A DNA stretch of 56,073 nucleotides from an uncultured Nitrososphaerota archaeon (GTDB lineage Archaea; Thermoproteota; EX4484-205; DTQO01), in assembly GCA_964631995.1 (NCBI GenBank), contig CAZWAU010000057.1, forward strand, positions 1 to 56,073, written 5' to 3'. The position numbers were made by a program, and so were the translations under genes. The notes beneath the pieces are model-generated. The model searched no databases. It was not told the origin of the DNA and worked only from the letters and a program-made list of their open reading frames with translations. This document shows, one piece after another, positions 29,664 to 53,632 of the stretch (position 1 is the first letter of the stretch; each line of letters begins with the position of its first letter).

Positions 29664-29874
29664 CTTTTATGCGTAACGCAATACGACCAATTGGGCTGAT
29701 AACAGTTGCGTAACCTACGTAGGCGCTTTTGGATGCCCCAGAGACGCAACGTTCAAAAGTGATTGTGGAGCATTCCCGAATGGAGTGTGCACGAGCTGAA
29801 GGAGCCCTTAAAATACGAAAAGACTTCGATATTCTTAGAAGCTGCCAGCAAAGGAGCATGGGAGTAGGTTTCAG

Positions 29875-31743
29875 ATGCCCTCTGAAATGGGTTCGCAGCT
29901 GAAAAGGCTTGGGACGCTCCTTCGAGAGGGAGCGGAGGAGGAGGTCGATGAAACGAAGACCAGGCTTGAATCCGCTGCCCAACTTTACAGGGATTTTGTA
30001 TCAAATATAATTGTGTCAAGCTTCGACCAAGACGAGGCCACGCGAACTGCGGAGAAGCTTTTTGGATCGACAAGCGTGAAGTTTGCAGCAATAGATGGAT
30101 CTGAAGACCAGAGGTTGGTTGCGGGATTGGCTGTATTTTGGGGCGGAGCATGCGCTTCGACGGGCATTGTGGAGTTCAGGAAAGGTTCATTGCCAAAAGT
30201 TTCATACGAAACTGGGTTCGTAAAGAGGGGACAAGGTGTTTCAAGTTGTGTTCCCATCTATGTTGATCGGGTTGTCGAGGTGGACCAAAAGATCTTGAAG
30301 CTCTCCGAATCGGGGGAAGCAACATTGACTGTCCCACTTACCGAGCAGGCGGTTGTGGACAACTCGAGCATCGCAGGTTGGATCATGATCTTCTCAGAAC
30401 TTTACCTTGCATATCGTATGGTGATAGACGAAGGCATAAAGATCGTGCTGCTTGATCGCAGCCTGTCAAACACCCAGACGAGCCTGATCTATGACACTTC
30501 GAGGAGGGGCAGGTGGGAGAGCGAATGTTCCATCTGTGGCTTCGATTTAGAAGGCTTGCCGATCGACAGGAATGAAATGGGATATGGAAGGTACCACTAT
30601 ATTAACCAAGAACTGAAGATACCTTCTGCTCGGGGAGATTCGATCAGATATTCTGTCATCTACCTCGTGCAAGAAAAAGGAGTGCCGATGAGCCTTGAGG
30701 AGGTTTGCGAAGCTCTGGGCGTAAATGAGCATGACCGGAAGGAGAGGGTCAGAAAGTATCTGAAGAAGGCCGTCGCTGAAGGGTACTTAATAGAGCAGGA
30801 AGGAAAGTACATTTCGAATCCACGCTATGAGAGAAGCTGGGAGAGATTGAGGAAGCTGGTTGAGATGATCGGTCAGCAGCTTTTTGAGGCGAGGAAGGGT
30901 AACCCGATGCGTATTAAAAGAGGAGATGAGTTCAGGTGGCTTACAACGCAAGACATGGCTTTCTTGACTCTCTACTGCCTGTATATGCTCATTGAGGAGT
31001 GCTGGAAGAGAAATGTTCTCCTAGTTGGAATTACGAAGGACACGACTGCACGGGATTTCAAGTCACACGTTGTTCCAGTTTGCGGAAATGTTGGGATATG
31101 GAAGGTAGATGAGCAAAGACTTAGGGATATACCTACTACAGACAGGATGTTCCTTCAATCGATCAGCATGAATAACTATGAAGATATTCCAGTACCTTGG
31201 AGCCTTATCGAGTATGATACGTCTTTCCAAACGATTGTGCCCGACTTTAAGAAGAGGGCCGGATATGTGAGTGGTGCGAGGAGGAATAGGATAAGTGCCG
31301 AGAGGACATTCGTAAAATCGTATATACAACTTGGACAGTCAAAGAGAGATCCACAGTTCAGGAGCAACGTACTTTTCATCGACAGACTTGCATATCCCCA
31401 GTTCGATACTCCCCGATTAAAATTGAATCACGAGTATGATGGAGCGGTAGAGCCGGTAGAGGTCATCTTCTACAAGGACAAGGAAACGAAGAACGAGATA
31501 CAGAACTTAGTGGTGACTATCCTTAGAAGTATGGGAGGCGGGAGCATTCCTGAAGCATTTGGCCACAATAGGCCGCTATTCGTTGCAGACAAGATTGCGA
31601 AGGCCCAGAGGAGGAGCGTGGTCGGAATGCTGGACGCGACTGGACACTGGCTTATGAACAGCTCCAGGCTCAGGCGATTCTGCTTTTATATGAACACATT
31701 CAGAGAGAGAAGGGCGGAAGTAGAGCATGCAAGAGGCAGATAG
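29875..31743 (+). CDS. NurA-domain nuclease, enlarged (622 aa) with internal wHTH-like insertion
   Basis: NurA motifs are KFAAIDGSEDQ, KIVLLDRSLS, LLVGITKDTTARDF and C-terminal GHNRPLFVADKIA. The insertion is VQEKGVPMSLEEVCEALGVNEHDRKERVRKYLKKAVAEGYLIEQEGKY. Confidence 0.75.
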   Translation: MPSEMGSQLKRLGTLLREGAEEEVDETKTRLESAAQLYRDFVSNIIVSSFDQDEATRTAEKLFGSTSVKFAAIDGSEDQRLVAGLAVFWGGACASTGIVEFRKGSLPKVSYETGFVKRGQGVSSCVPIYVDRVVEVDQKILKLSESGEATLTVPLTEQAVVDNSSIAGWIMIFSELYLAYRMVIDEGIKIVLLDRSLSNTQTSLIYDTSRRGRWESECSICGFDLEGLPIDRNEMGYGRYHYINQELKIPSARGDSIRYSVIYLVQEKGVPMSLEEVCEALGVNEHDRKERVRKYLKKAVAEGYLIEQEGKYISNPRYERSWERLRKLVEMIGQQLFEARKGNPMRIKRGDEFRWLTTQDMAFLTLYCLYMLIEECWKRNVLLVGITKDTTARDFKSHVVPVCGNVGIWKVDEQRLRDIPTTDRMFLQSISMNNYEDIPVPWSLIEYDTSFQTIVPDFKKRAGYVSGARRNRISAERTFVKSYIQLGQSKRDPQFRSNVLFIDRLAYPQFDTPRLKLNHEYDGAVEPVEVIFYKDKETKNEIQNLVVTILRSMGGGSIPEAFGHNRPLFVADKIAKAQRRSVVGMLDATGHWLMNSSRLRRFCFYMNTFRERRAEVEHARGR

Positions 31744-33586
31744 AAAGTACTTCACCGATTTTGGTGGAAGATTCAGAGCGCGCCTCAGTTCTGTACACGC
31801 TACAAGCGGCATAGCAACGGTACCTTCTGAAACGACAGGTGTTTCGGCGAAGTATCAGTGCAGGATAAAGGTCGAGTACCAGAAGGAACTGATGGGTCTT
31901 CTCGAAGAAGGGATGCTGCTCGCTGTCAGGAACTTCAAGTCGACAAGAACCAGTGGTGGGGGAAGGTACACACTTCTTGAGGCATCGAGAATAGGGCCGG
32001 AGCACTATGGTCTGAAGGGGCTCTCCGACTCAAGTTATTATCCGTACCAGTTCGAAGTGATAGAGCAGACGGTCGATGACTGGGGAACCGATGACAAGGC
32101 GATCATGATGATTCAGATGAACGCGATCCCCCTGAACTACGACCTGGTAATAGATGATAATGGCGAATGCAAGTACGTAAAGGGATTTACCTATCCCATA
32201 ATAGCTGAGGAAGTTCACATACTCAATAAAGATACCATACACCAGATGTACAATAGGCCAGTCTTGGAAAGAATGGGAAGAAATTGGAAAAAGATCGAGA
32301 CGACACATTTGGCAAGAGAAGACTGCAGGCTTGGAACTATAAAGATGTTTGAGGCGGAGGGGGAGAGCATCCCGATCTACGTTGATTTCGAGAGGCTCGT
32401 GAGGTACCACTTTGGTATTTTCGGATTCACGGGCTCAGGTAAGTCAAACCTAATGTCGAACATACTGAGAAGACTCATCTACCACTCGAGGGATACAAAG
32501 GTTGTCGTATTTGATATTTCTATGGAGTATCCTTTTCTACTGCAGGATGTCTTGGCAGATCCCAAAATTTCTTCAAAGGTTATATTGGAGACACCTGTCG
32601 AGGACGTTGAGCAATTCTACAAAGTTGTTGTGAAACCGAGGGGATTCGAGAAGGATGATAGGGCAAAGCGTTCTTTCGAAGCGATCATGAGGCAGGGGAA
32701 GCTTGGTTACTTTGCAGAGTCCACCTCGGCCTCGGTCACGTATGAAGATATTCTACGCCAATTCGAAATGCTTAGGCAGGAGAATGAAAACAAGGCCACA
32801 AACCTTGAAGCGATCGACGCCCTCCAAAGAGCCGTATTAAGGTATATGAAAGAGAAAAAGCTTGAGCGCGGAAGAGCCATAGACGAAAGGTTCGTCGATT
32901 TTCTGAGCGAAGAAGCCATTACGACATTTGACAAGTACAAGATATGGAAAAGCGGAAGCCTATACGCCTGGGCTATGACTAGGAGCGAACTAAAAGAAAG
33001 GATCGGGCTCGAGGACAAGGAAGAGAAAGGTGAAAGTTACGACACGAAAGACATTTCGGAGATGATCGAATCAGAAACTAGAATCATCTGTCTTTCTATT
33101 GTTGATCCAAACATTATTAAAAACCTTGCCATCGATCTCTCAAAAATGGTACTTTTGGAAAGGAAAAGAGAATTCAAAGTCGAGCCTTCGATCCTTTTCA
33201 TATTCGATGAGGCCCAAGAATTCATCCCATCGCATGACAGGGCAAGGGGCATAGAGAAGGAGTGCACTGTGCAGGTCGAAACTCTTCTGAGGCAGGGAAG
33301 GAAGTATGGACTAGGAGGGTGCATTGCGACGCAGAGGATAGCTTACCTGAACACAAACGCGCTGCAGCAACTGCACACCTACTTCATCGGCCCCATGCCA
33401 AGACCATATGATAGAAGCCTCGTCAGCAACACCTTCACCATAGACCAAGGCATACTTGAGAAGACGCTTGAGTTTGCTCCAGGGGAGTGGTTGCTATCAA
33501 GTTATGTAGCGACTGGAATAGAGAATGTTCCGATCTTTGTGAAGGCGGACAACGCCGAGCTGGAGATAGAGAGGTTCTTAGGTTGA
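31727..33586 (+). CDS. HerA-like (DUF87/FtsK-HerA superfamily) ATPase
   Basis: Walker A is FGFTGSGKSNL, Walker B is ILFIFDEAQEFIP and the sensor is GGCIATQRIAYLN. There is an N-terminal HAS-barrel-like region. The start overlaps the NurA stop by 17 nt. Confidence 0.85.
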   Translation: MQEADRKYFTDFGGRFRARLSSVHATSGIATVPSETTGVSAKYQCRIKVEYQKELMGLLEEGMLLAVRNFKSTRTSGGGRYTLLEASRIGPEHYGLKGLSDSSYYPYQFEVIEQTVDDWGTDDKAIMMIQMNAIPLNYDLVIDDNGECKYVKGFTYPIIAEEVHILNKDTIHQMYNRPVLERMGRNWKKIETTHLAREDCRLGTIKMFEAEGESIPIYVDFERLVRYHFGIFGFTGSGKSNLMSNILRRLIYHSRDTKVVVFDISMEYPFLLQDVLADPKISSKVILETPVEDVEQFYKVVVKPRGFEKDDRAKRSFEAIMRQGKLGYFAESTSASVTYEDILRQFEMLRQENENKATNLEAIDALQRAVLRYMKEKKLERGRAIDERFVDFLSEEAITTFDKYKIWKSGSLYAWAMTRSELKERIGLEDKEEKGESYDTKDISEMIESETRIICLSIVDPNIIKNLAIDLSKMVLLERKREFKVEPSILFIFDEAQEFIPSHDRARGIEKECTVQVETLLRQGRKYGLGGCIATQRIAYLNTNALQQLHTYFIGPMPRPYDRSLVSNTFTIDQGILEKTLEFAPGEWLLSSYVATGIENVPIFVKADNAELEIERFLG

Positions 33587-33677
33587 TTCAGCTCATGCAA
33601 TGGATTGCTTTAGAGCCTCCCAGCACCAGTTTTCCAAGAGGCGATGAAAGTCTTAAATCGGTGAACTCGGAACACTG

Positions 33678-34022
33678 ATGCGTGGAGAACTGAATCCTTT
33701 GGAGGAAAAATTGAAGTCCTTCTTGAAAACTGGATCGGATTGGGCTAGACTTAAAACAAGCGTTCCAGGTGTTTTCGTTTTGAAGCTTCCGCCATTTCGC
33801 GGCAGTCCTGCGCGCCTTGCAGTTGAACTCAATCCGGTCGACGATTCTGGGAATCCGACGAGGAGGAGAGGATTGATATTGAGGAACTTTGATGAACTTT
33901 CGCAGTACAAGCAGCTCTTTCAGACGGACAAGCTAGAGCCTTTGGTTAAGAGCGTAGAAACTGCAAACCCCGTCGAGAAGAAGAAGTTTGTAAAACCCGG
34001 AGAAGATGTCTTGGAGATTTAA
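33678..34022 (+). CDS. hypothetical protein (114 aa)
   Basis: The ATG has a CTTAAAT box at 33652-33658. Its stop codon directly abuts the helicase start. I recognise no motif. Confidence 0.5.
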   Translation: MRGELNPLEEKLKSFLKTGSDWARLKTSVPGVFVLKLPPFRGSPARLAVELNPVDDSGNPTRRRGLILRNFDELSQYKQLFQTDKLEPLVKSVETANPVEKKKFVKPGEDVLEI

Positions 34023-36161
34023 TTGCTCTCAAAATCCCCTGAAAGGAGGACTTTTTACGAACATCCATTGGTGAGGGATGGCGCGGTCGAGTACAGGGTT
34101 TACCAAGCCAGAATAGCTGAAGCTGCTTCAAAAGGGAATACGTTAGTAGTTCTGCCCACGGCACTTGGCAAGACAATCATATCAGCGCTTGTGGCTGCAA
34201 ATATCTTGTACTCCTACAGGCATGCTAGGATCCTCGTGATGGCGCCTACCAGACCCCTCGTTGCGCAACATAGAGAAAGTTTTCTACGCATACTGAAAAT
34301 TGGCGAAGAGGATGCTGTCATGCTCACAGGCCATACACCGCCAGAGATGCGAGAGGTTGTTTGGAAAAGCTCTGCTAGAGTTTTGCTGGCAACGCCCCAA
34401 GTCGTAAGGAACGACATTTTAGATGGGCGGTTGACGCTGGAAAGCTTTGGCCTCCTGATATTCGACGAGTGTCACAGGGCTGTCAAGGAGTACGCTTACA
34501 CAGATATCGCAAGTTTCTATCGACAACAAGCTGAGAACTCGCTCGTTCTTGCCATGACAGCCTCGCCCGGATCGAGTCTTGAGAGGATCCAAGATGTTTG
34601 CGTAAATCTCTCAATTGAACAGATTTTTTACAGGACTGAGGAAGATGAAGACGTAAGACCTTACATCCATGCTATAGATGTCGATTGGAGGCGAATAGAC
34701 CTTCCGGAAGATTACGCTCCCTTTGAAAAAGCATTGAGGAGCATGCTGATGGAAAAACTGCAGCGACTTTCCACGCAGGGCCTTCTAGAAAAAGACCCAA
34801 GATTCGTGGGGAGGAGGGAGCTTGTTGAGCTTGGTGACCTGCTTCGCTTCCGCCTGGAGGTTAGCGTAGAGGAGGAAAGGGAGAGGTGGATGCGGGCGAT
34901 TTTGCAACAATCGATGGCCCTTACGATATTCCACATGATAGAACTTCTACTTAGTCAGGGACCACAGACCTTGTCTTCCTTCATTGAGAAGATGGAAAGA
35001 GAGAGGAAGGAGAAGAGAAGCTATGGCATCATCTTGGCTGAGATGGAATCGATGGGAATCCTTGAGAAACTTGAGGCGCTAAAAAGGACACTTCATCCTA
35101 AAGTACTGCATTTGGTGAAGATAGTTAAGGAGCACCTTAGAGAAAATGGAAAGGGCAGAATTTTGGTGTTCTCGCAGTACAGAGATACGGTCGGTCATCT
35201 TGTGAGCGTTATGGAAAAAGTAGAGGGCGTTTCGGTCTCGCGTTTCGTTGGGCAAGCTTCGAAGTTTGGCGGGAGGGGCATGAGCCAGAAGGAGCAAATG
35301 CAAGTACTGAATGAGCTTCGAGATGGCGCGATCAATGTTCTTGTTTGCACAAGCATCGCTGAAGAAGGTTTGGACATTCCTGAGGTGGACCTTGTTGTGT
35401 TCTACGAGCCAATTCCGAGCGAGATAAGGTACATCCAGAGGCGCGGTAGGACAGGGAGAAGGGCTCCGGGAAAAGTGATAGTGCTCGCGGCCAAAAACAC
35501 ACTCGATATGGCTTACTTGAGGGCGAGTATGAAGCGCTTGGAGAAGATGAGGAGCATGATGGAGAAACTGAGCAGAACGCTCTCAACAAAGCCCCTCAGG
35601 CCGAGGCCACACATGGATCCCTTGACTCCTGAGGAGCTAGCGATTTTGGAAAGAAAGTCTCGAGCTCCTATCTTAGAGGCCGAGGTCGCCTTCCCAGTGA
35701 AGATCGAGGAAGCGGAAAAGGAAGCCAAGAGGGCGATGTCCAAGGATGTCGACAAGGCCTGCAAGGCGCTCTACGTGAAGCTTTTGGAGCATGGCGGAAA
35801 AGCAGAAGTTGAAAGCCTACTGTCAGACCTAGAAGTGGAAGGCTACTCAAGCGCTTTGACCGAAGCAGCGCTCAAAAAGCTGCTAAAAGAACGTAGGGTG
35901 TTCGCTCCCGAAATTGGGGCTGTTGCCATCCCGAAGGCATGCAAGGGAGATGAGCACGAAGTGTCCGTTGAGAAAATCCTGAAAGGTGAAGCTGTAGTTT
36001 GGGTTGATGGGAAGTGGCGCGCACGCCTACAATCTGAAGATTACAACGGACCAAGGTCTATATTGAGAAAGGATGCATGCTTCAAAGTAATAGGGAAACT
36101 TTATCGCATGGATGGCGTACTCTGCCTCAGGATCTATCAAGTGATTGGGTTAATGAAGTAA
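34023..36161 (+). CDS. Hef/FANCM/Mph1-like SF2 helicase (COG1111-type) without XPF nuclease domain
   Basis: It has YRVYQARIAEAA, motif I LPTALGKT, motif II FDECHRAV, motif III MTASPG and motif VI QRRGRTGR. The C-terminal ~170 aa show no ERK/GDxnERKx3D nuclease motif. The start codon is TTG. Confidence 0.85.
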   Translation: MLSKSPERRTFYEHPLVRDGAVEYRVYQARIAEAASKGNTLVVLPTALGKTIISALVAANILYSYRHARILVMAPTRPLVAQHRESFLRILKIGEEDAVMLTGHTPPEMREVVWKSSARVLLATPQVVRNDILDGRLTLESFGLLIFDECHRAVKEYAYTDIASFYRQQAENSLVLAMTASPGSSLERIQDVCVNLSIEQIFYRTEEDEDVRPYIHAIDVDWRRIDLPEDYAPFEKALRSMLMEKLQRLSTQGLLEKDPRFVGRRELVELGDLLRFRLEVSVEEERERWMRAILQQSMALTIFHMIELLLSQGPQTLSSFIEKMERERKEKRSYGIILAEMESMGILEKLEALKRTLHPKVLHLVKIVKEHLRENGKGRILVFSQYRDTVGHLVSVMEKVEGVSVSRFVGQASKFGGRGMSQKEQMQVLNELRDGAINVLVCTSIAEEGLDIPEVDLVVFYEPIPSEIRYIQRRGRTGRRAPGKVIVLAAKNTLDMAYLRASMKRLEKMRSMMEKLSRTLSTKPLRPRPHMDPLTPEELAILERKSRAPILEAEVAFPVKIEEAEKEAKRAMSKDVDKACKALYVKLLEHGGKAEVESLLSDLEVEGYSSALTEAALKKLLKERRVFAPEIGAVAIPKACKGDEHEVSVEKILKGEAVVWVDGKWRARLQSEDYNGPRSILRKDACFKVIGKLYRMDGVLCLRIYQVIGLMK

Positions 36162-36181
36162 TGGATCGGGTGTTGTGAAAG

Positions 36182-36958
36182 ATGTCGGAAGAAAGGAAGG
36201 CGAATACGGAGAAGCTCTTTTCGTACTTTTGGAGAGAGTTGGGAAAGGTTGGGCGCGATGGAGTGTTAGGAGTGGCTAGCTTTGCAGACGTTTTTGGTGA
36301 ACTGATGCCCGTCCAAAGGAACAAGCTGAAGGAGCTCTGTGGCAGAAGCTTTCAGAACATGCTCAGTGGCGGTTCGATCGTATCTATTGGGATCTCACAT
36401 TCGGAGAATGCCATAGACTCTATCAATGTAGTTGTCAATGGCATCATTGACAAGAAAAGGTGGAACGAATATGGAAGGGAATACGAAAAGATCAATCAGA
36501 GTCTTGACGAGATCGCTGGAAAGATAGCTGATAGCTTCGGAGGAACGCCGATAGCAGCAACTATAGGAGGACTTGTGAGAAAGGTAAGTAAAGTCGAGGA
36601 ATACTATACGCTCACGATCTCTCACAGAATCGTGGCCGAGTGCGCCGGCCTAGGATGGAGAGGAAAGAACGAACTTGTAGTGAACGAGAGGTATGGGTGC
36701 GCCTTAAGGTTCGCATCCATTGTGATGGATACCAAGTTTCAAAATGGGAATAAAATGGAATCCAAGTGCGGCCATTGTAGCGCATGCCTTGATGCCTGCT
36801 CGATATTGAAAAACAAAGACAAGCTGAAAAATTACAGGGAAAACTGCAGGAGATTCATCGAGTCTCTTGGCCTTGAGCACGAGGTCTGCGGAAAGTGCAT
36901 CGCAGCTTGTTACAGGAAAAGTATCTACAAGGACATTTTTAGGCTCAAACACATCTAG
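36182..36958 (+). CDS. QueG/reductive-dehalogenase-like 4Fe-4S protein
   Basis: It has SHRIVAECAGLGWRGKNELVVNERYG, CGHCSACLDAC and a second partial Cys cluster VCGKCIAACY. It lies 20 nt downstream of the helicase. Confidence 0.6.
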   Translation: MSEERKANTEKLFSYFWRELGKVGRDGVLGVASFADVFGELMPVQRNKLKELCGRSFQNMLSGGSIVSIGISHSENAIDSINVVVNGIIDKKRWNEYGREYEKINQSLDEIAGKIADSFGGTPIAATIGGLVRKVSKVEEYYTLTISHRIVAECAGLGWRGKNELVVNERYGCALRFASIVMDTKFQNGNKMESKCGHCSACLDACSILKNKDKLKNYRENCRRFIESLGLEHEVCGKCIAACYRKSIYKDIFRLKHI

Positions 36959-47990: not shown

Positions 47991-50213
47991 CTAGATCCCG
48001 ATCGATTTGATCTCTTTCTCAGGCGGATCCTCCTTAATCTCCAGATCGAAGTGAGCAGCCTTCCTTGTTTTTATTCCGAACTCACGCCTCGAGAAACCCA
48101 AAGTAGAGAGGATGGTCTCTGTAGCGTTCATGAGAAGCTCCCTGTACTTCTCCTTGTCGTATTTCCTCCCATCGTGCGTTTCAATGGGAGATACTCGACA
48201 CAGTGGGTTGCGATTTTTCGAATCGATGTGGACAAACTCCACCACATCCCCCTCCTTGACCTCCTTCCCTTTTTCAGCCAGTCTTTTCGCGGCAGAGACG
48301 TGAGCGATCGCCCTAGCATATGTTGAGAGGGGCCTCCTGAGGACCTTGGAGACCGCCAGATCCCTTACCTGGACCTTGCCCTCCATCACCTTCCTTACCG
48401 ATTCGATGACGAGTTCCCTTGCCCTCTCGTATCCTTCATTCTTTACTCGCTCATATCCATCTTGATTCAGAAGGGTCAGTATCAGCTTGCGTTGAAACTC
48501 CATTATGAACCTTGGAGTATCATGGCGCCTCATCTCTATACCCCTTGCCACCAGCTCGCCGTTCGTAAGAACCCCGAAGTAGTGCTTCTGCGCCTCCATG
48601 TTGCCAGATGGATCCGATTCCAAAGGAAGGAGGACCAGGAACTTGTAGTGGTGGTCTAGCGCTATTGGAAGCCCTGTTCTCCTTGCGATCTCCGAGGCCA
48701 GTTCTTCGTAATCCTCCTTTGAGGCCCCTTTCCTCTTCACGAAGATTGAGTCCGTATCGCCATACACGACCTCGAACTCCATCTCCTGCGAGCAGTCCTT
48801 CGCCAACATCATGGCCTCCCTCGAGCGCCTGTTTATCTCCTCGAAGCACAGCACGTTTCCGAACCTGTTCCAGCAGCAGCCCGATGTACCATAGAGGCAT
48901 ACGAGTATCGATTTGAGCGCCTGCTGCCTCTGCTCGCACAATAGCCATTCGGTGCTTTTTTCAGGATACTTTTTCTTGAGCGCCTTGAAGTAGAGTCTCC
49001 TTTCCAGAAAATTCCTGGTAACGTAAGGCAGTATGGCATCTCCCTTCGGCTTGATCCCTTCTGGAGTAACGGTCTCGTAGCTCAGGTTATGCTTGACGAT
49101 TAGGTTAGGGTACTGGCTCTCAAAGTCAAGCTCTGCGACATTCTCGTGAACTATGCCTATCTTCGGCGATATGATGCAGCCTCCTCTGTCTCTTGCCACC
49201 ACCTCCTTCATCGTCCTGACATACTCGTAACGTCCCTCGTTCCTAGGTATCACGTACCCCCTCTTCATGAGTTCGTAGCAGTTCCTGCTGTCTATGACCT
49301 TGTTGGCAGTCCACCTGCCAGCTATGCCTGGCGGAAGGAAGCCGAACCTCGCCCTCTCGACCAAACCAGCGAGGCCCCAGTCTTCGTAATCAAGGCCAGG
49401 CATCCTGTAGCTGAGTGCTACCCTTCCCTTAGCCCAGCACGGGAGCTTTCTACCAAAGCCAGGGTCGCTCGTTGCATCCCTTCCAAGCTGAAAATTGATT
49501 CCAGCCACCCTTGCCCTCGCAAAGAGGTAGGGGAACGAGAAATCATCGCACTCGGGGCAGACCATGATGTCTGGGTCCTTCTCCCTTACCAGCGATTGGA
49601 AATCCTCCAGTATCTTCGACTCCTCTCCATCAAGTTTGAATTCCTCTCCACCGTAACGTGCGGTTATCGATTTTATGGGGTCGCGCTCAGCCCTTTGAGT
49701 CAGGAATGAACCGCTAAAATTGATGCTGAAAGAAAGTACGGTGAATGGTGGCGGAGCTATCTCGCTTGAATCGTCTAAAGGCTTTGCTGATATTAACTTG
49801 TTCCCTTCGTGTTCGACCTCGACCTTGCTTGTTGGAGCAACGTCGAGCTTGGTGAAGAGATACTGCTGGATGTGGAGAAGGTCTGTGTTATAGACTCCTT
49901 TTACTCCAGGAACGTTCTCGATAGTCCTGAGGATTCGCCTGTAACACTCGAGCCCATCTAGAGTGATGCTTATCACATTCTCCTTCTCCCCTTCGAGGTT
50001 GACGTACTTCTCTTCCAAGTATGCGCTAGTTACGTTCGAGCTGCCCATAACTGCATTAAGCACATCATTCTCGCACCCAGCCTTTGGCAGAACACAGAGG
50101 CGCGGATAGTATTCATCGAGGAGCCTGAGGTGCAAGCCGTCGATGGTTCGCAGCCAGGTGACGGCCTTCTCGCCCTCTATGTAAACGTCTAGGACCCAGC
50201 CTGTGCTCTTCAA
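47991..50213 (-). CDS. family B DNA polymerase with degenerate 3'-5' exonuclease motifs (PolB2-like)
   Basis: Motif A is LDFESQYPNLI, motif B KSILVCLYG, motif C VVYGDTDSIFV and KxY is QKHYFG. Exo I reads LSFSINF and Exo II reads DDFSFPYL. The TTG start overlaps the upstream TGA. Confidence 0.9.
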   Translation of the reverse strand: MKSTGWVLDVYIEGEKAVTWLRTIDGLHLRLLDEYYPRLCVLPKAGCENDVLNAVMGSSNVTSAYLEEKYVNLEGEKENVISITLDGLECYRRILRTIENVPGVKGVYNTDLLHIQQYLFTKLDVAPTSKVEVEHEGNKLISAKPLDDSSEIAPPPFTVLSFSINFSGSFLTQRAERDPIKSITARYGGEEFKLDGEESKILEDFQSLVREKDPDIMVCPECDDFSFPYLFARARVAGINFQLGRDATSDPGFGRKLPCWAKGRVALSYRMPGLDYEDWGLAGLVERARFGFLPPGIAGRWTANKVIDSRNCYELMKRGYVIPRNEGRYEYVRTMKEVVARDRGGCIISPKIGIVHENVAELDFESQYPNLIVKHNLSYETVTPEGIKPKGDAILPYVTRNFLERRLYFKALKKKYPEKSTEWLLCEQRQQALKSILVCLYGTSGCCWNRFGNVLCFEEINRRSREAMMLAKDCSQEMEFEVVYGDTDSIFVKRKGASKEDYEELASEIARRTGLPIALDHHYKFLVLLPLESDPSGNMEAQKHYFGVLTNGELVARGIEMRRHDTPRFIMEFQRKLILTLLNQDGYERVKNEGYERARELVIESVRKVMEGKVQVRDLAVSKVLRRPLSTYARAIAHVSAAKRLAEKGKEVKEGDVVEFVHIDSKNRNPLCRVSPIETHDGRKYDKEKYRELLMNATETILSTLGFSRREFGIKTRKAAHFDLEIKEDPPEKEIKSIGI

Positions 50214-51322
50214 CGATCCTCCCTTTCGATCCGCCTCTCTTGTCTTCCAGCCTCCGCGAGCCTCTCCAACATCTCTACGCGATCCTCCAACTCGCGAATT
50301 TTTTCTTCCTTCTCCCTAAGCGCCTTTCGCAATTCTTCTACACACTTCTTGTTGTGCACGTTTGCCATCAAATTCATGGCATCCAAAGTTACCGGCACCG
50401 TCGAGTTGGACATCGCGTGCCCCTCGGCGCTCCAAGCCTCCTTGAGAAGAAGGTTGAAAGCTTCTCTGTGGTTGAGGTCTAGGAGGGCGTTCTGGAAGCT
50501 CTTCTTCAGCTCTTCTACCTGGGACTCGAAGAGCTGGCGGAATGAGGGGGTTATCCTTCCCATCAGGCTTACACCTCCTTCTGGTACGCGCAAAATGATC
50601 GAGTCTGGCGTTTCCTTGTATGGGTGCTTGACCAGGCAGGCCCTGATCGCCCTCATCTTCTCCACCCTCTTCAGGCACACGATGATGTTTGCACGGTGCC
50701 TGAGAAAAGCACCTCTCGGGAGTCTTGGCACGTATCCGATGCTTGTTCTTGAGGCTACACAGTTTGCAACTATCGTGACTCCGTTCTCATGGGCTGCCCG
50801 CCACATTGTGCTGACAACCTCCTTCAGGGTTTGGTACGCTTCAGCTGGCTTCCTTGACGTTCCTACAAATACTGTGAGGTTGTGGAGAGCGAGCAGCTTG
50901 ATCTCGCCGCTCCTAGATATCAGATCCGCCGCCTCTTTTGCAGCAGAGAACTGTTGCCGTTCATTGAAGGCGCTGATCGAGTATATGTTGCCAAGCGCTA
51001 TGTTGGGATCTAGCCCAGCCTTCTTCGCGAACTCCCCGAACATCGAAGGGTTCAGTATCGTCTTGCCCTGGTGGTAGTTGCAGCTGTTGAAGTACAGCGC
51101 TTTGGCCCCGAAGCCACCTTTTCCTGCGGGGAGAAGAGAATTGACTAGGATTCCGTGGACGATCCTGTCCAATGCCTCCTGGCTGTCTCCATAGAAGAGA
51201 TAAGACCCTCCAAGCTTCACCCCACCCATCAGGGAATCTAGATCACCGTTCCCAGTCGTAAGCATGGGCCTTTTACCCTCCTCCTCCAGCGCTTGAGCCG
51301 CTGTCTCGAAGACTATCGCCAT
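50210..51322 (-). CDS. RadA/RecA-fold paralogue with degenerate Walker A/B and C-terminal coiled coil
   Basis: It is collinear with the RadA core (TTGNGDLDSLMGGVKLGGSYLFYG..). The P-loop is replaced by GDSQEALD, and Walker B reads KLLALHN. The C-terminus is EELRKALREKEEKIRELEDRVEMLERLAEAG. ATG 51322 follows the orf132 stop by 2 nt. The track ORF extends to 51376. Confidence 0.75.
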   Translation of the reverse strand: MAIVFETAAQALEEEGKRPMLTTGNGDLDSLMGGVKLGGSYLFYGDSQEALDRIVHGILVNSLLPAGKGGFGAKALYFNSCNYHQGKTILNPSMFGEFAKKAGLDPNIALGNIYSISAFNERQQFSAAKEAADLISRSGEIKLLALHNLTVFVGTSRKPAEAYQTLKEVVSTMWRAAHENGVTIVANCVASRTSIGYVPRLPRGAFLRHRANIIVCLKRVEKMRAIRACLVKHPYKETPDSIILRVPEGGVSLMGRITPSFRQLFESQVEELKKSFQNALLDLNHREAFNLLLKEAWSAEGHAMSNSTVPVTLDAMNLMANVHNKKCVEELRKALREKEEKIRELEDRVEMLERLAEAGRQERRIEREDR

Positions 51323-51324
51323 GT

Positions 51325-51723
51325 TCAACCCGCTGCCCAACTTCGATGTCGGACAGGAAGAAGTAAGGTTGGCCATTCTTCCAACAGGGCCGAACCCCTG
51401 ATGCTCACTCCGAGCAGTCTTTCTCGGATATAGTGCAGCATTATGGAGCGCTGGACATCTATCAATCGATTACCTTCATCGAGTGGCTCCAGCTCCGTTT
51501 CCCTAACCTTGAAAGCGCCATCCTCCAAGAGCGCATGCTTGGGTCCTATTTTGTTGCATGCTTCCCTGACCCCTGATGAGATGGTCCTGGCGATCACTCC
51601 GACGTACTTCCTTGTTTGTAGGTCATCAAGATTCACGAGTTTGGTACTCCCTTCACCGCCTAGGCCGGGCATTTTCTCCGGTTTTGGAGGAACGTGATCT
51701 GCCCGAAGTAGCATTTTGCCCAC
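51325..51723 (-). CDS. hypothetical protein (132 aa) between radA and the RadA paralogue
   Basis: This ORF fits tightly, 6 nt after the radA stop and 2 nt before the next ATG. I recognise no motif. Confidence 0.5.
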
Positions 51724-51729
51724 CTAGAG

Positions 51730-52716
51730 TTATTCTCTGCTTCTCCTCGGGCTCTCCAGATCCTCGATCCCCTTCTCCGTTATCCTGAACCTCGCCTCGC
51801 TGTACGGGTGGTAGGGGCTGTCCACGATCGTTGCGATTCTCTCCTGTCCTGCCTTCTTCAAGTAGATCCTGTAAGTGCATGCATGTGCTATGACATTGCC
51901 GCCCGTCGGCTTTGTTGGATCTCCGAAGAATACATCGGGCTGGGTCTGGACTTGGTTGCTGACAACTACTGCAATGTTGTAGACCTCGGCCTGCCTTATC
52001 AGCCTGTGGATGATCGTGTTGAGTCTCTGCTGCCTCTCTGCAAGGGTCCCCCTGCCTATGAACTCTGCTCTATGAAGACTGATGATGCTGTCGACGATTA
52101 CGAGCTTCGCCTTGAACTTCTCCACGTACTTGCCCAACGTTTTGATTATAAGCTCGAGGTGGCTGCTGTTGTACACCTTGCAGATTACTATGTTTTGCAG
52201 TATCTCGTTGGAGTCCATTCCTCGAGATTCCGCTATCTGCTTTATCCTCTCTGGCCTGAATGTATTCTCGGTATCTATGTAGAGCGCGCTGCCTCCAAGG
52301 CCGCCTTTCCCTTGGGGAAGCTGGCAGGTGCAGCAGAGCGTATGGCATAGCTGCGTCTTGCCACTTCCGAAGTCCCCGTACACTTCAGTTATGGCTTGGG
52401 TTTCGATCCCTCCCTTCAGGAGCTCGTCCAAGCTCCTAGAGCCTGTGGTGCAGCGCATCATCGTTTTTCGCCTGCTCAGGACCTCTGCCGCTGTTACGAA
52501 ACTTCCCTCAAGTAGCCCGCTCCCCTCCAGCAGTTTTCTGGCAGAGAGAATGAGGGAGGCAGCGTTCACATCTTTTCCGCCGATGGCCTCTTGGAGTTCA
52601 TTCGGAAGGGCCGCGGCGAGATCGAGCACCGTCTCGATTGAGTTCTCGTTCAGTTTCTCCTTCGTCCTCGGGCCTATACCCGGAATCATCTCCAGGTCGA
52701 GTTCTTCTTCTACCAT
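51730..52716 (-). CDS. radA: DNA repair and recombination protein RadA
   Basis: It has an N-terminal HhH (IPGIGPRTKEKL), Walker A EVYGDFGSGKTQLCHTL and Walker B KLVIVDSI, plus SNQVQTQPD. Confidence 0.95.
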   Translation of the reverse strand: MVEEELDLEMIPGIGPRTKEKLNENSIETVLDLAAALPNELQEAIGGKDVNAASLILSARKLLEGSGLLEGSFVTAAEVLSRRKTMMRCTTGSRSLDELLKGGIETQAITEVYGDFGSGKTQLCHTLCCTCQLPQGKGGLGGSALYIDTENTFRPERIKQIAESRGMDSNEILQNIVICKVYNSSHLELIIKTLGKYVEKFKAKLVIVDSIISLHRAEFIGRGTLAERQQRLNTIIHRLIRQAEVYNIAVVVSNQVQTQPDVFFGDPTKPTGGNVIAHACTYRIYLKKAGQERIATIVDSPYHPYSEARFRITEKGIEDLESPRRSRE

Positions 52717-52764
52717 GTTTGCTCATGCCAACATGTGAGCTTCTTTTCTTTAGTTAATATTCGA

Positions 52765-52790
52765 CCACGCACGTGGAGGAAGAGGGGGGT
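52765..52790 (+). promoter_or_regulatory. ORB-like element: dyad CCACG-CA-CGTGG followed by G-string GGGGGG
   Basis: The sequence is CCACGCACGTGGAGGAAGAGGGGGGT. The dyad plus G-tract layout resembles archaeal origin recognition boxes. It lies at the edge of an AT-rich spacer. Confidence 0.3.
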
Positions 52791-53105
52791 ATCCGTGCCA
52801 TCCCTGAAAAATTCATCCATCTAAAATATCTCAATCAAATGGCTAGATCGATTGTGTTAACAAAAGATTCTGTTTCGATATATCTGAACAAGATATTTCT
52901 ATGCTCTCTCACCAGAAGTTTCAATTCGTATACTCTGTCTTGGATTTAGCACATAAGATAATAGAATGGTATTCTGATCGTGAAGTGGGAATCGTTTATA
53001 CTAGAAAAGGTCCATCAAAAGTTGTGAGGAATGTCTATGGCAATGTCATCTTTTAGATTTGGATAACGGTTGAACCCAAAACCCGCTACGGTAACGCGAG
53101 CTTAT

Positions 53106-53124
53106 ATCCCCCAACTGCATGCAT
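53106..53124 (-). promoter_or_regulatory. second dyad + G-tract element, inverted orientation
   Basis: The minus strand reads TGCATGCAGTTGGGGGA. It is inverted relative to 52765-52790, but the dyad sequence differs. Confidence 0.2.
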
Positions 53125-53139
53125 ATCGCCGGATAGACA

Positions 53140-53493
53140 TTGGCGTCTATTAAAGAGGCACCTGTGAAGGCCATTAGGGAATGGAAGGTCATCGCGAGAG
53201 ATGGCCGATCATGGGCATGCGGGATCTATGCTCCGAAAAACCGTTCAGTTGAGGACGTGAAATTCCTCGAAAAGCACGATTGCCCTGAACTCTTCTATCT
53301 TCTCACAGGATCTGTAAAGCTTGTCGTGATGAGGCACGGTCGGAAGGAGGTAATTCCTCTAACTAGGAAAAAGGCGATCGTTGTCAACACCTGGCACAAT
53401 GGCTTCAGTGATGGTAGGAAGAGGGGAATGGCACTCGTAATAGAGAGAGGTAAAGTCTCCACGCAATACATGAAGCTTGAAAAGAAGTGCTGA
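53140..53493 (+). CDS. small cupin-like hypothetical protein
   Basis: It has a TTG start with CTTATATCC at 53101-53109. HDCPELFYLLTGSVKLVV resembles a cupin motif. Confidence 0.4.
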   Translation: MASIKEAPVKAIREWKVIARDGRSWACGIYAPKNRSVEDVKFLEKHDCPELFYLLTGSVKLVVMRHGRKEVIPLTRKKAIVVNTWHNGFSDGRKRGMALVIERGKVSTQYMKLEKKC

Positions 53494-53600
53494 TACGACT
53501 CTTTAGGAACCAGGAAGCAGCCACCCTTCGTTCAGTAGACCTAATTTTCGATTTTCATCAGATGAGCTGAATATAGGTTCTAGATACCTTGTCTGGAATT

Positions 53601-53609
53601 CTTATATAA
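53601..53609 (+). promoter_or_regulatory. TATA-box candidate CTTATATAA for cdc6
   Basis: It is centred about 28 nt upstream of the TTG start at 53633. Confidence 0.45.
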
Positions 53610-53632
53610 TCAAACATAACGATTCAAAGGAG

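What the first reader, a model, noticed from the sequence alone, without database searches (positions are those of the whole stretch)
29875..36958. NurA(wHTH)-HerA-orf114-Hef-like helicase-FeS protein module lacking Mre11/Rad50
Five co-directional genes are tightly packed. NurA and HerA overlap by 17 nt. The orf114 stop abuts the helicase start. The QueG-like gene follows the helicase after 20 nt. Canonical archaeal herA-nurA is embedded with mre11-rad50, but neither is present here. The NurA is about 200-300 aa longer than characterised NurA proteins, and a nuclease-less Hef/FANCM-like helicase is attached. HerA-family ATPases paired with effector nucleases are established in bacterial anti-phage systems (for example Sir2-HerA and DUF4297-HerA). 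This could be either a variant end-resection machine or a nucleic-acid surveillance/defence module. A CTTAAAT box at 33652-33658 may give orf114 and the helicase their own promoter, so linkage of the two halves is uncertain.
Basis: partly seen in the sequence, partly recalled or inferred. Interest (0 to 1): 0.75.

Follow-up and report, generated by a model that had tools for sequence, protein, structure and literature searches.

The report
Two DNA-repair gene pairs, adjacent
The five genes are real, but they are two separate, widely conserved archaeal DNA-repair gene pairs (NurA-HerA and a small unknown protein with a Hef-type helicase) plus an iron-sulfur gene, and they sit side by side only in one narrow lineage, so this is neither a conserved five-gene machine nor a defence system.

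Summary
The window is chromosomal DNA of a Bathyarchaeia/Brockarchaeota-like archaeon.

Gene 1 is a true NurA nuclease by fold, with an inserted winged-helix domain. It is translationally coupled to a HerA ATPase. This roughly 620-aa NurA plus HerA pair is conserved across Bathyarchaeia: HerA is adjacent in 75 of 77 loci, and the surrounding genes are housekeeping genes that vary from locus to locus.

The helicase is the known "split" Hef/ERCC4-like helicase (COG1111), which lacks the XPF nuclease. Split forms of this kind are already described for Thaumarchaeota and Aigarchaeota.

orf114 is a real, highly conserved protein with no annotation. It lies immediately upstream of this helicase in 45 of 60 genomes from Bathyarchaeia, Nitrososphaeria, Brockarchaeota and Hadesarchaea, and it has its own conserved TATA-like box.

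The five-gene order exists only where NurA is at least 70% identical to the window's NurA (6 of 6 loci, two of them already eroded). It is absent in all 45 more distant loci.

No defence-system signature was found.

The parts that go beyond what is known are the winged-helix NurA variant and the orf114 family as a candidate partner of Hef. Interest is moderate to low.

The parts
29808..29815 (+). TTAAAATA, a candidate TATA box about 60 nt upstream of the NurA start, in the divergent intergenic region shared with the MttB-like gene. Low confidence.
   Evidence: Read directly from the sequence. Conservation was not tested.
29875..31743 (+). NurA-family 5'-3' nuclease, 622 aa, long form. Candidate catalytic motifs are AAIDGS (D74), FSELY (E175), LLDRS (D194) and FGHN (H564).
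   Evidence: Pfam NurA scores 21.8 bits against a cutoff of 21, and the match is split by an insertion. The AF2 model has pLDDT 79.9 and pTM 0.84. The top 10 Foldseek PDB hits are all NurA, from T. kodakarensis, S. solfataricus and P. furiosus, with E = 3.7e-9 to 2e-5 and probability 1.0. D74, E175, D194 and H564 are invariant in 31 homologues.
30640..30819 (+). Winged helix-turn-helix insertion within NurA, approximately residues 256-315.
   Evidence: The model shows a helix-helix-helix-strand-strand pattern at residues 256-314. There is a DUF4777-like hit at 261-312 (E = 1e-5, below cutoff). Foldseek local matches to wHTH proteins include 2g9w, 2d1h and 1bja at probability 0.99-1.0. The insertion is conserved across the family.
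31727..33586 (+). HerA-family hexameric ATPase/translocase, 619 aa. Its start overlaps the NurA stop by 17 nt, which indicates translational coupling.
   Evidence: DUF87/HerA central domain at 70.2 bits. Walker A at residue 233 and Walker B at residue 494. PDB HerA hits are only remote. HerA lies adjacent to NurA in 75 of 77 related loci.
33641..33658 (+). Conserved BRE/TATA-like block GCGATGAAAGTCTTAAAT, 20 nt upstream of the orf114 ATG. Candidate promoter for a leaderless or short-leader transcript covering orf114 and the helicase.
   Evidence: Sequence read. The block is conserved in L006, L081 and L003 although the rest of the intergenic region diverges. TATA-like boxes lie at -25 to -40 in many of the 41 orf114 homologues examined. 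Transcription was not measured.
33678..34022 (+). orf114, a conserved small protein with no annotated family. Its predicted fold is alpha-beta4-alpha-alpha, followed by a conserved basic linker and a G-E-[DE]-V-L-E-[IL] C-terminal tail. It is the candidate partner of the Hef-type helicase.
   Evidence: No Pfam, NCBIfam or PADLOC hit. 366 homologues at 56-99% identity occur in Bathyarchaeia and Nitrososphaeria. The family comprises 382 clusters at 50% identity. The AF2 model has pLDDT 80.9. No significant fold match was found in PDB or BFVD. It lies directly upstream of the Hef-like helicase in 45 of 60 GTDB loci.
34023..36161 (+). Hef/FANCM-type SF2 helicase, 712 aa (ERCC4-like helicase, COG1111). 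It lacks the XPF nuclease. A conserved C-terminal region of about 170 aa is of unknown type and may be wHTH plus a beta-rich domain.
   Evidence: NCBIfam Hef PRK13766 scores 587.9 bits over model positions 3-526 of 781. PDB 1wp9 matches at 2.4e-122 and FANCM 9el5 at 4e-66. Motifs GKT (49), DECH (148), TAS (179) and QRRGR (472) are present. The C-terminal region has no Pfam or PDB match. Full-length homologues are widespread.
36182..36958 (+). QueG/reductive-dehalogenase-superfamily Fe-S protein, 258 aa, carrying CGHCSACLDAC and CGKCIAAC motifs. It is not QueG itself. It accompanies the helicase only in the close clade.
   Evidence: TIGR00276 scores 52 bits against a cutoff of 200, over residues 143-250 only. 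PDB QueG 5d08 matches at 9e-9 over residues 145-215. Cys motifs were located. Among the 65 orf114-anchored loci the gene is present only in L013. It is present in 5 of 5 Hef-containing loci of the clade with NurA at least 70% identical.

Best explanation
The region is a lineage-specific side-by-side placement of independent housekeeping DNA-repair units on an archaeal chromosome (Thermoproteota, Bathyarchaeia/Brockarchaeota-like).

**Unit 1: nurA-herA.** This is the lineage's DNA-end-resection pair.
- By analogy with the solved archaeal complexes, a HerA hexamer uses ATP to feed duplex DNA into a NurA dimer.
- The NurA dimer degrades DNA 5'-3' and leaves 3' tails for RadA.
- The overlapping stop and start codons couple translation of the two subunits.
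- This NurA is a long variant. It has an inserted winged-helix domain, an N-terminal helix, a disordered loop and a C-terminal helical extension. I infer that the winged helix adds a DNA contact or a partner contact.
- The pair works unlinked from mre11-rad50, as in Deinococcus-Thermus.

**Unit 2: orf114 plus the Hef-type helicase.** This is a separate two-gene operon with its own promoter, conserved across Bathyarchaeia, Nitrososphaeria, Brockarchaeota and Hadesarchaea.
- The helicase is the known split form of Hef (COG1111 without the XPF nuclease). It presumably remodels stalled forks and branched DNA.
- orf114 is most likely a small accessory subunit or a nucleic-acid-binding adaptor for the helicase. 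This is inferred from gene adjacency and from domain fusions.

**Unit 3: the QueG-like Fe-S gene.** This is a recent passenger behind the helicase, of unknown role.

**What is shown and what is inferred.**
- Shown: gene identities, folds, motif conservation, adjacency statistics.
- Inferred: biochemical activities, the orf114-Hef physical interaction, promoter use.
For: **NurA-HerA**
- The NurA fold is confirmed, and the candidate catalytic residues D, E, D and H are invariant.
- HerA carries the DUF87 domain and both Walker motifs.
- The NurA-HerA adjacency and overlap are conserved in 75 of 77 loci, down to 48% identity.
- The flanking genes are housekeeping genes that differ between loci: a ribosomal-protein operon in L002, AspRS and CTP synthase in L001, MttB and DHDPS in the window. 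This fits vertical inheritance.

**Gene order**
- The five-gene order is limited to the clade with NurA at least 70% identical, and it is already eroding there. L008/L083 carries an inserted PALP-enzyme gene. L003/L080 keeps orf114 but has no helicase or FeS gene.
- orf114 is followed by Hef in 45 of 60 GTDB loci. NurA-HerA lies upstream in only 1 of 65.
- RadA lies directly upstream of orf114-Hef in 7 of 55 loci.
- A promoter-like block upstream of orf114 is conserved.

**Literature and other loci**
- The split ERCC4-like helicase is documented for Thaumarchaeota and Aigarchaeota (PMC3082918).
- A stand-alone herA-nurA operon is documented in bacteria of the Deinococcus-Thermus phylum (PMC12977600).
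- The four-gene operon with mre11-rad50 is described for thermophilic archaea (PMC7776575).
- A Bathyarchaeote MAG carries an Mre11-like plus Rad50-like pair at a locus with no NurA or HerA within 8 kb (L060).
Against: - No expression data exist, so read-through from herA into orf114 cannot be excluded. All five genes are co-directional and tightly packed.
- orf114 stays next to HerA in L003 even though the helicase is gone there. In Nitrosotalea it precedes a HerA-like DUF87 ATPase. It could therefore serve HerA-type ATPases as well as Hef.
- I could not scan whole Bathyarchaeia genomes. Copy number of nurA-herA and the position of mre11-rad50 in this particular organism are untested.
- HerA's best PADLOC profile is a "type III coevolved" HerA (E = 4e-43, 146 bits).
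- The mapping of the invariant NurA residues onto the catalytic positions rests on motif order, not on a superposition.
Confidence: 0.8

Rival explanations
1. In this clade the five genes form one functional super-operon. It would couple end resection (NurA-HerA) to fork or branch remodelling (orf114-Hef) and to an Fe-S redox or sensor protein, and so be a variant recombination machine.
For: The genes are co-directional and tightly spaced. Both halves are recombination-related, and orf114-Hef is linked to RadA elsewhere. The arrangement persists from 98% down to about 71% NurA identity in 4 of 6 loci with all five genes contiguous (L078, L079, L081, L082). L013, found in the separate orf114-anchored scan at 80% NurA identity, shows the same order but its contig ends within the FeS gene. 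orf114 remains after HerA in L003.
Against: The arrangement is absent from all 45 more distant NurA loci and from 64 of 65 orf114 loci. Within the clade it is interrupted by an unrelated PALP-enzyme gene in L008 and has lost the helicase and FeS gene in L003. A conserved promoter-like element separates the two halves. The FeS gene has no wider association with the others.
Confidence: 0.12
2. The region is an anti-phage or nucleic-acid-surveillance module, in which a HerA-family ATPase is paired with an effector nuclease (analogous to Sir2-HerA, DUF4297-HerA, or type III CRISPR-associated HerA/NurA) and has recruited a helicase.
For: HerA's best PADLOC profile is PDLC01055, "HerA, type III coevolved", at 4e-43. 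Its nearest PDB sequence hits include anti-phage HerA proteins at weak E-values. The NurA architecture is unusual.
Against: NurA, orf114 and the FeS protein have no PADLOC hit, and the helicase shows only generic SF2 similarity. The NCBIfam anti-phage HerA models score 39-47 bits against cutoffs of 800-850, no better than the repair HerA model. The window has no CRISPR array, no cas genes and no tandem repeats. The pair is conserved across the class, sits among housekeeping genes, and its divergence tracks that of the neighbouring genes. Its partner is a bona fide NurA fold, as in the repair complex.
Confidence: 0.04
3. orf114 is not Hef-specific. It would be a general small DNA-binding or adaptor protein of the recombination machinery that serves several motors (Hef, HerA-like ATPases, XPD, Mre11-Rad50, TopoIB). 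In the window it would functionally bridge HerA-NurA and Hef.
For: - orf114 follows HerA without Hef in L003.
- It precedes a DUF87/TraG-like ATPase in 5 Nitrosotalea-type loci.
- It precedes an XPD-like helicase in L035.
- It lies 302 nt upstream of an Mre11-like plus Rad50-like pair in L060, separated by a short Hef N-terminal fragment.
- It is fused to TopoIB in L040.
- Remote family members are fused to a NYN RNase or a RING finger, or occur as 2-4 tandem copies.
Against: 75% of assessable loci pair it with Hef. L060 retains a short Hef N-terminal fragment between orf114 and Mre11, which suggests a rearranged orf114-Hef copy rather than a selected pairing. Several neighbours are unrelated enzymes: a methyltransferase, a GH99 glycosidase, an M42 peptidase and deoxyhypusine synthase. 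No DNA-binding fold could be assigned. The best Foldseek hit has E = 0.16, and the Sub1/PC4-like hit has probability 0.2.
Confidence: 0.15

Closest known systems
Archaeal HerA-NurA end-resection complex (S. solfataricus, P. furiosus, T. kodakarensis; PDB 2ygk, 3tai, 4d2i, 9x1l-9x1p)
   Same: The NurA fold matches (Foldseek probability 1.0). HerA has the DUF87 ATPase domain with Walker A and B motifs. The two genes are adjacent and overlapping. The implied mechanism is a hexameric translocase feeding a dimeric nuclease.
   Different: NurA is about 170-300 aa longer. It has a winged-helix insertion at about residues 256-315, a disordered loop at about 112-164, and extra terminal helices. Sequence similarity to solved NurA and HerA proteins is near or below detection. 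The pair is not in an operon with mre11-rad50.
Stand-alone bacterial NurA-HerA operon of Deinococcus-Thermus (D. radiodurans, T. thermophilus)
   Same: A nurA-herA pair without adjacent mre11-rad50, proposed to be a minimal resection machine (PMC12977600).
   Different: The host here is an archaeon and the NurA is the long wHTH form. The gene order is nurA then herA, with a class-wide vertical distribution in Bathyarchaeia.
Split Hef: ERCC4-like helicase (COG1111) encoded apart from the XPF nuclease in Thaumarchaeota, Aigarchaeota and a minority of Euryarchaeota; eukaryotic FANCM
   Same: The helicase core is orthologous to P. furiosus Hef (1wp9, 2.4e-122) and related to FANCM (9el5, 4e-66). 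The nuclease domain is absent, as described in PMC3082918.
   Different: It carries a conserved C-terminal region of about 170 aa with no detectable family. It is preceded by the conserved orf114 gene. I found no Pfam or NCBIfam family for that protein, and the source databases name it only as hypothetical. Any analogy between orf114 and the FANCM partners MHF and FAAP24 is speculative.
Anti-phage HerA systems (Sir2-HerA, DUF4297-HerA) and type III CRISPR-associated HerA/NurA
   Same: A HerA-family ATPase is paired with a nuclease. A remote profile hit exists to a type III-associated HerA model.
   Different: There is no Sir2 or DUF4297 effector, no cas genes and no defence-island context. The curated anti-phage HerA models are far below cutoff. 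The distribution is housekeeping-like.
Epoxyqueuosine reductase QueG / reductive dehalogenase family
   Same: The Fe-S cluster region and the adjacent core align to QueG (5d08 at 9e-9; TIGR00276 over residues 143-250).
   Different: The protein is 258 aa against about 340-440 aa for QueG. It scores 52 bits against a cutoff of 200. The N-terminal half is unmatched and there is no C-terminal tRNA-binding region. Archaea are not known to make queuosine (my own knowledge).

Membership tests
HerA-NurA DNA end-resection pair | NurA (RNase H-like) nuclease fold | tested here: met
   The top 10 Foldseek PDB hits are all NurA structures, with E = 3.7e-9 to 2.2e-5 and probability 1.0. Pfam NurA scores 21.8 bits against a cutoff of 21.
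HerA-NurA DNA end-resection pair | Conserved metal-binding catalytic residues of NurA (Asp, Glu, Asp, His) | tested here: inconclusive
   D74 (AAIDGS), E175, D194 (LLDRS) and H564 (FGHN) are invariant in 31 homologues and occur in the expected order. No structural superposition onto the known active site was possible.
HerA-NurA DNA end-resection pair | HerA/FtsK-class ATPase with HerA central domain and Walker A/B motifs | tested here: met
   DUF87 at 70.2 bits. GFTGSGKS at residue 233 and DEAQ at residue 494. The curated equivalog models for HerA are far below cutoff (44.6 against 970), so this is a divergent clade.
HerA-NurA DNA end-resection pair | nurA and herA adjacent and co-transcribed | tested here: met
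   17-nt overlap in the window. Adjacency in 75 of 77 related loci. Co-transcription itself was not measured.
HerA-NurA DNA end-resection pair | Operon linkage with mre11-rad50 (a trait of thermophilic archaea, not universal) | tested here: not met
   No Mre11-like or Rad50-like gene in the window. No homologue of a Bathyarchaeote Mre11-like/Rad50-like pair lies within 8-10 kb of NurA in 80 related loci.
HerA-NurA DNA end-resection pair | ATP-dependent nuclease/translocase activity and HerA6:NurA2 assembly | not testable with these tools
   Needs biochemistry or multimer modelling.
Anti-phage HerA systems / type III CRISPR-associated HerA-NurA | Match to curated anti-phage HerA models at their cutoffs | tested here: not met
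   NF042944 scores 46.7 against 850, and NF042943 scores 38.8 against 800. PADLOC PDLC01055 scores only 146 bits on a 532-position profile. NurA has no PADLOC hit.
Anti-phage HerA systems / type III CRISPR-associated HerA-NurA | Defence effector partner (Sir2, DUF4297) or cas genes/CRISPR array nearby, with a variable defence-island context | tested here: not met
   No such domains, repeats or arrays were found. The neighbours are housekeeping genes and the pair is conserved across the class.
Hef (euryarchaeal helicase-nuclease, PRK13766) | SF2 Hef-type helicase core with helical insertion domain | tested here: met
   1wp9 at 2.4e-122. Pfam DEAD, RNA_helicase_helical and Helicase_C domains. 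Motifs located.
Hef (euryarchaeal helicase-nuclease, PRK13766) | C-terminal ERCC4/XPF nuclease plus HhH2 domains | tested here: not met
   The NCBIfam match stops at model position 526 of 781, and the score of 587.9 is below the cutoff of 610. The C-terminal 170-210 aa have no Pfam or PDB match. This places the protein with the split ERCC4-like helicases (COG1111) of PMC3082918.
QueG (epoxyqueuosine reductase, TIGR00276) | Full-length match at the curated cutoff | tested here: not met
   52 bits against a cutoff of 200, aligning only residues 143-250. No Pfam family is above threshold.

The most novel reading that the evidence does not exclude
orf114 would define an undescribed, strongly conserved small-protein family. 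Identity between Bathyarchaeia and Nitrososphaeria is 56-65%, there are 382 clusters at 50% identity, no Pfam or NCBIfam model exists, and no significant structural neighbour was found. The family would be the dedicated partner subunit of the split Hef/FANCM-type helicase of Thermoproteota-related archaea, an archaeal counterpart in role to FANCM accessory factors. Through its conserved acidic C-terminal tail it might link the helicase to RadA, to HerA-type ATPases or to DNA. In addition, the winged-helix insertion in Bathyarchaeial NurA might give the resection nuclease a new DNA-recognition or recruitment function.
Probability: 0.3. Interest if true: 0.55.

Novelty: new variant of a known kind. 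Interest (0 to 1): 0.35.

Why it matters
If the best explanation holds, nothing here needs a new kind of system. The region documents how Bathyarchaeia, an abundant uncultured sediment lineage, encode recombinational repair. They carry a free-standing long NurA(wHTH)-HerA pair, and a split Hef helicase with a conserved small companion gene.

Two practical points follow:
- A tight co-directional cluster of repair genes should not be read as a system without checking synteny.
- The orf114 family is a cheap and well-defined target for structural and interaction work, which could reveal how nuclease-less Hef/FANCM-like helicases are assisted in archaea.

Tried and rejected
- **PDB sequence and profile searches with NurA** found nothing. 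Only the fold comparison identified the protein.
- **Pfam, NCBIfam, PADLOC and a PDB profile search for orf114** found nothing significant. RAD23B XPC-binding domain hits at E about 0.6 were rejected as noise.
- **Foldseek of the orf114 model against PDB and BFVD** gave best E-values of 0.16 and 0.076. The Sub1/PC4-like and PUR-alpha hits are suggestive of single-stranded nucleic-acid binding, but they are not significant.
- **The Hef C-terminal region as a degenerate ERCC4 nuclease, or as a relative of orf114**: no support.
- **CRISPR or defence context**: no tandem repeats, no Rfam hits, no cas genes.
- **Origin-of-replication repeats near the Cdc6 gene**: none found.
- **Literature** on NurA winged-helix insertions and on Bathyarchaeota Mre11/Rad50: nothing relevant.
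- **Whole-genome checks** for a second herA-nurA pair, or for the mre11-rad50 location in this organism, were not possible with the capped scans.


Full report
**1. Observation.**
- 29875-31743 (622 aa)
- 31727-33586 (619 aa)
- 33678-34022 (114 aa)
- 34023-36161 (712 aa, TTG start)
- 36182-36958 (258 aa)

The 17-nt NurA/HerA overlap is confirmed. So are the abutting orf114 stop and helicase start, and the 20-nt gap before the FeS gene. CTTAAAT lies at 33652-33658 within the 91-nt HerA-orf114 spacer.

The window is archaeal chromosomal DNA. It encodes RadA, a RadA paralogue, PolB, Cdc6/Orc1, F420 ligase, an MttB-like methyltransferase, dCTP deaminase and metabolic enzymes. It has no CRISPR array, no tandem repeats and no Rfam hits. 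None of the ORFs of 150 aa or more that I scanned with Pfam is Mre11-like or Rad50-like. The closest named relatives are Bathyarchaeia and "Brockarchaeota" MAGs.

**2. What the genes are.**

*NurA.*
- It reaches Pfam NurA only at threshold (21.8 bits against 21). The match is split by an insertion that weakly resembles a winged-helix family.
- Sequence and profile searches of the PDB found nothing.
- An AlphaFold2 model built on 31 homologues (pLDDT 79.9, pTM 0.84) gave only NurA structures as its ten best PDB matches. These come from the T. kodakarensis HerA-NurA complex, S. solfataricus and P. furiosus (E = 3.7e-9 to 2e-5, probability 1.0).
- The segment at about residues 256-315 matched small winged-helix proteins locally.
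- D74, E175, D194 and H564 are invariant and occur in the order expected for the NurA metal site. I could not superpose them on a solved active site.
- The extra length relative to solved NurAs (319-433 residues in the structures) comes from four elements. These are an N-terminal helix, a low-confidence loop (about 112-164), the winged helix, and C-terminal helices.

*HerA.* It has the HerA central domain (70 bits) and intact Walker A and B motifs. It is only remotely similar to every characterised HerA, whether from repair or from defence systems.

*The helicase.* It is a Hef-type SF2 enzyme. It matches 1wp9 at 2.4e-122 and FANCM at 4e-66, and all helicase motifs are present. The Hef model is matched only to position 526 of 781. 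The conserved C-terminal region of about 170 aa has no Pfam or PDB relative and is unrelated to orf114.

*The FeS protein.* It aligns to QueG only around the Fe-S region, at 52 bits against a cutoff of 200.

**3. Is it a module? Test anchored on NurA.**
The roughly 620-aa NurA architecture is conserved in hundreds of Bathyarchaeia-type sequences at 48% identity or more. In 80 metagenomic loci plus six assembly contexts, HerA follows NurA in 75 of 77 assessable cases, usually with an overlap.

Among 51 loci with at least 1.5 kb of sequence after HerA, orf114 follows in only six. All six belong to the bin with NurA at least 70% identical (6 of 6). The counts are 0 of 11 at 55-70% identity and 0 of 34 below 55%.

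The arrangement is decaying even inside that clade:
- L008/L083 has a PALP-enzyme gene inserted between HerA and orf114.
- L003/L080 keeps an orf114 homologue after HerA but has no helicase or FeS gene. The gene caller missed this orf114 homologue; tblastn found it.

More distant NurA-HerA pairs sit next to a ribosomal-protein operon (L002) or next to AspRS and CTP synthase (L001). This is the pattern of a vertically inherited housekeeping pair, not of a mobile defence island.

**4. Is it a module? Test anchored on orf114.**
orf114 is a genuine protein.
- It has 366 homologues, and identity between Bathyarchaeia and Nitrososphaeria is 56-65%. That is higher than for the helicase itself.
- A profile search found 382 clusters at 50% identity.
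- It has no Pfam, NCBIfam or PADLOC family.

A scan of GTDB species genomes returned 65 loci from Bathyarchaeia, Nitrososphaeria/Thaumarchaeota, Brockarchaeota, Hadesarchaea and others. In 45 of 60 assessable loci the next gene is the Hef-like helicase, usually abutting or overlapping. NurA-HerA lies upstream in only one locus, the 80% relative. The FeS gene is also present only there. RadA lies immediately upstream in 7 of 55 loci.

orf114-Hef is therefore a conserved two-gene unit in its own right. A block GCG-TGAA-TCTTA[A/T]AT, 20-25 nt upstream of orf114, is conserved among clade members while the rest of the spacer diverges. TATA-like boxes occur 25-40 nt upstream of many of the 41 homologues examined.

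**5. Comparison with what is known.**
- The four-gene herA-mre11-rad50-nurA operon is described for thermophilic archaea (PMC7776575).
- A free-standing herA-nurA operon is known in Deinococcus-Thermus (PMC12977600).
- One Bathyarchaeote MAG (L060) carries an Mre11-like and a Rad50-like gene with no NurA or HerA within 8 kb. Mre11-Rad50 can therefore lie elsewhere in this class.
- A Hef helicase (COG1111) encoded apart from the XPF nuclease is already described for Thaumarchaeota, "Caldiarchaeum" and some Euryarchaeota (PMC3082918).

The "missing Mre11/Rad50" and the "nuclease-less Hef" are therefore expected features of these lineages rather than anomalies.

The defence reading fails every test I could run:
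- There is no PADLOC hit for NurA, orf114 or the FeS protein.
- The helicase shows only generic SF2 similarity.
- The anti-phage HerA models are far below cutoff.
- There are no cas genes and no CRISPR array.
- The gene context is housekeeping.

The one counter-hint is that HerA's best PADLOC profile is a type III-associated HerA model (146 bits). I read this as remote family resemblance.

**6. Most likely mechanism.**

*Unit 1.* NurA(wHTH)-HerA acts as the end-resection motor and nuclease, as in the solved archaeal complexes. Its two subunits are translationally coupled. The winged helix probably adds a DNA contact or a partner contact; this is an inference.

*Unit 2.* orf114-Hef acts on stalled forks and branched intermediates, with orf114 as an accessory subunit or nucleic-acid-binding adaptor. 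The evidence for this is adjacency plus the other architectures in which the domain occurs:
- it is fused to TopoIB in one thaumarchaeote (L040);
- it lies upstream of an XPD-like helicase (L035);
- it lies 302 nt upstream of an Mre11/Rad50-like pair (L060), where a Hef N-terminal remnant between them suggests a rearrangement;
- it lies upstream of a DUF87/TraG-like ATPase in Nitrosotalea-type loci (L012, L021, L028, L032, L033);
- remote relatives are fused to a NYN RNase or a RING finger, or occur as tandem repeats.

The orf114 model (pLDDT 80.9) has an alpha-beta4-alpha-alpha fold followed by a conserved basic linker and a GE[DE]VLE[IL] tail. It has no significant structural neighbour.

*Unit 3.* The QueG-like Fe-S protein is a clade-specific passenger of unknown role.

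**7. Verdict.**

In novelty terms this is a new variant of a known kind, namely a long winged-helix NurA in a free-standing NurA-HerA pair. It comes with a by-product lead, the orf114 family as an uncharacterised and widely conserved companion of split Hef helicases. Interest is 0.35.

Noticed in passing
L040:7995-9869 (Thaumarchaeota UBA141, DAEN01000026.1): The orf114 domain (63% identical over residues 9-103) is fused in one continuous 624-aa ORF to the N-terminus of a eukaryotic-type topoisomerase IB (Topoisom_I_N starts at residue 108). The same MAG has a second, free orf114 copy (L043), with a Hef-like helicase encoded divergently upstream.
   Followed up: partly
L060:8001-11612 (Bathyarchaeota PFL18, JALHTG010000045.1): A second orf114 copy is followed by a short Hef N-terminal fragment (residues 13-50), then a Metallophos/Mre11-like gene (342 aa) and a Rad50-like ATPase (655 aa). 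The first copy in the same MAG (L044) has the normal orf114-Hef pair. This shows that an Mre11/Rad50-like pair can be unlinked from NurA-HerA in Bathyarchaeia.
   Followed up: partly
L012, L021, L028, L032, L033 (Nitrosotalea and related Thaumarchaeota): Here the orf114 homologue precedes a 602-aa DUF87/TraG-P-loop ATPase instead of Hef. In four of the five loci a T2SSE-type ATPase lies upstream at varying distance (about 350 nt to 4 kb); L032 is too short to show it. This may be a different DNA-translocation system that uses the same small protein.
   Followed up: partly
P0361, P0370, P0449, P0493 (remote orf114-family proteins): The orf114 domain also occurs as 2-4 tandem copies in one protein, and fused to a RING finger (P0449) or a Zc3h12a-like NYN ribonuclease (P0493). 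The organisms of origin are unknown.
   Followed up: partly
L035:7572-9275 (Hadesarchaea MAG): An orf114 homologue lies directly upstream of an XPD/Rad3-type helicase (DEAD_2 plus HBB domains) rather than Hef. The same MAG has a normal orf114-Hef locus (L034).
   Followed up: no
L003:13896-14231 (+): The public gene call at this position is a 143-aa ORF on the opposite strand. tblastn shows a 68%-identical orf114 homologue on the + strand, so the small gene is missed by annotation there.
   Followed up: yes
L001:11841-13702 (2.36-Mb contig): HerA is split into two ORFs (351 and 272 aa) in different frames in this otherwise intact NurA-HerA locus. This is either a frameshift or sequencing error, or a pseudogene.
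   Followed up: no
window 47991-54775: A cluster of replication and recombination genes on the other side of the window. It comprises PolB (47991-50213, -), a RadA paralogue (50210-51376, -), RadA (51730-52716, -), an AT-rich dip (33% GC at about 52800-53000) and Cdc6/Orc1 (53633-54775, +). This is a possible replication-origin neighbourhood, but no ORB-like direct or inverted repeats were detected.
   Followed up: partly
window 6605-7891 (-): A Mutator-family transposase-like ORF (428 aa, Pfam Transposase_mut, E = 3.4e-9), about 22 kb upstream of the finding. It is the only mobile-element signature seen in the window.
   Followed up: no
L147 and L150 (JGI24422J19971 contigs): Two NurA loci have about 1.4 kb of sequence downstream but no detectable HerA. 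They are the only exceptions to NurA-HerA adjacency among 77 loci.
   Followed up: no
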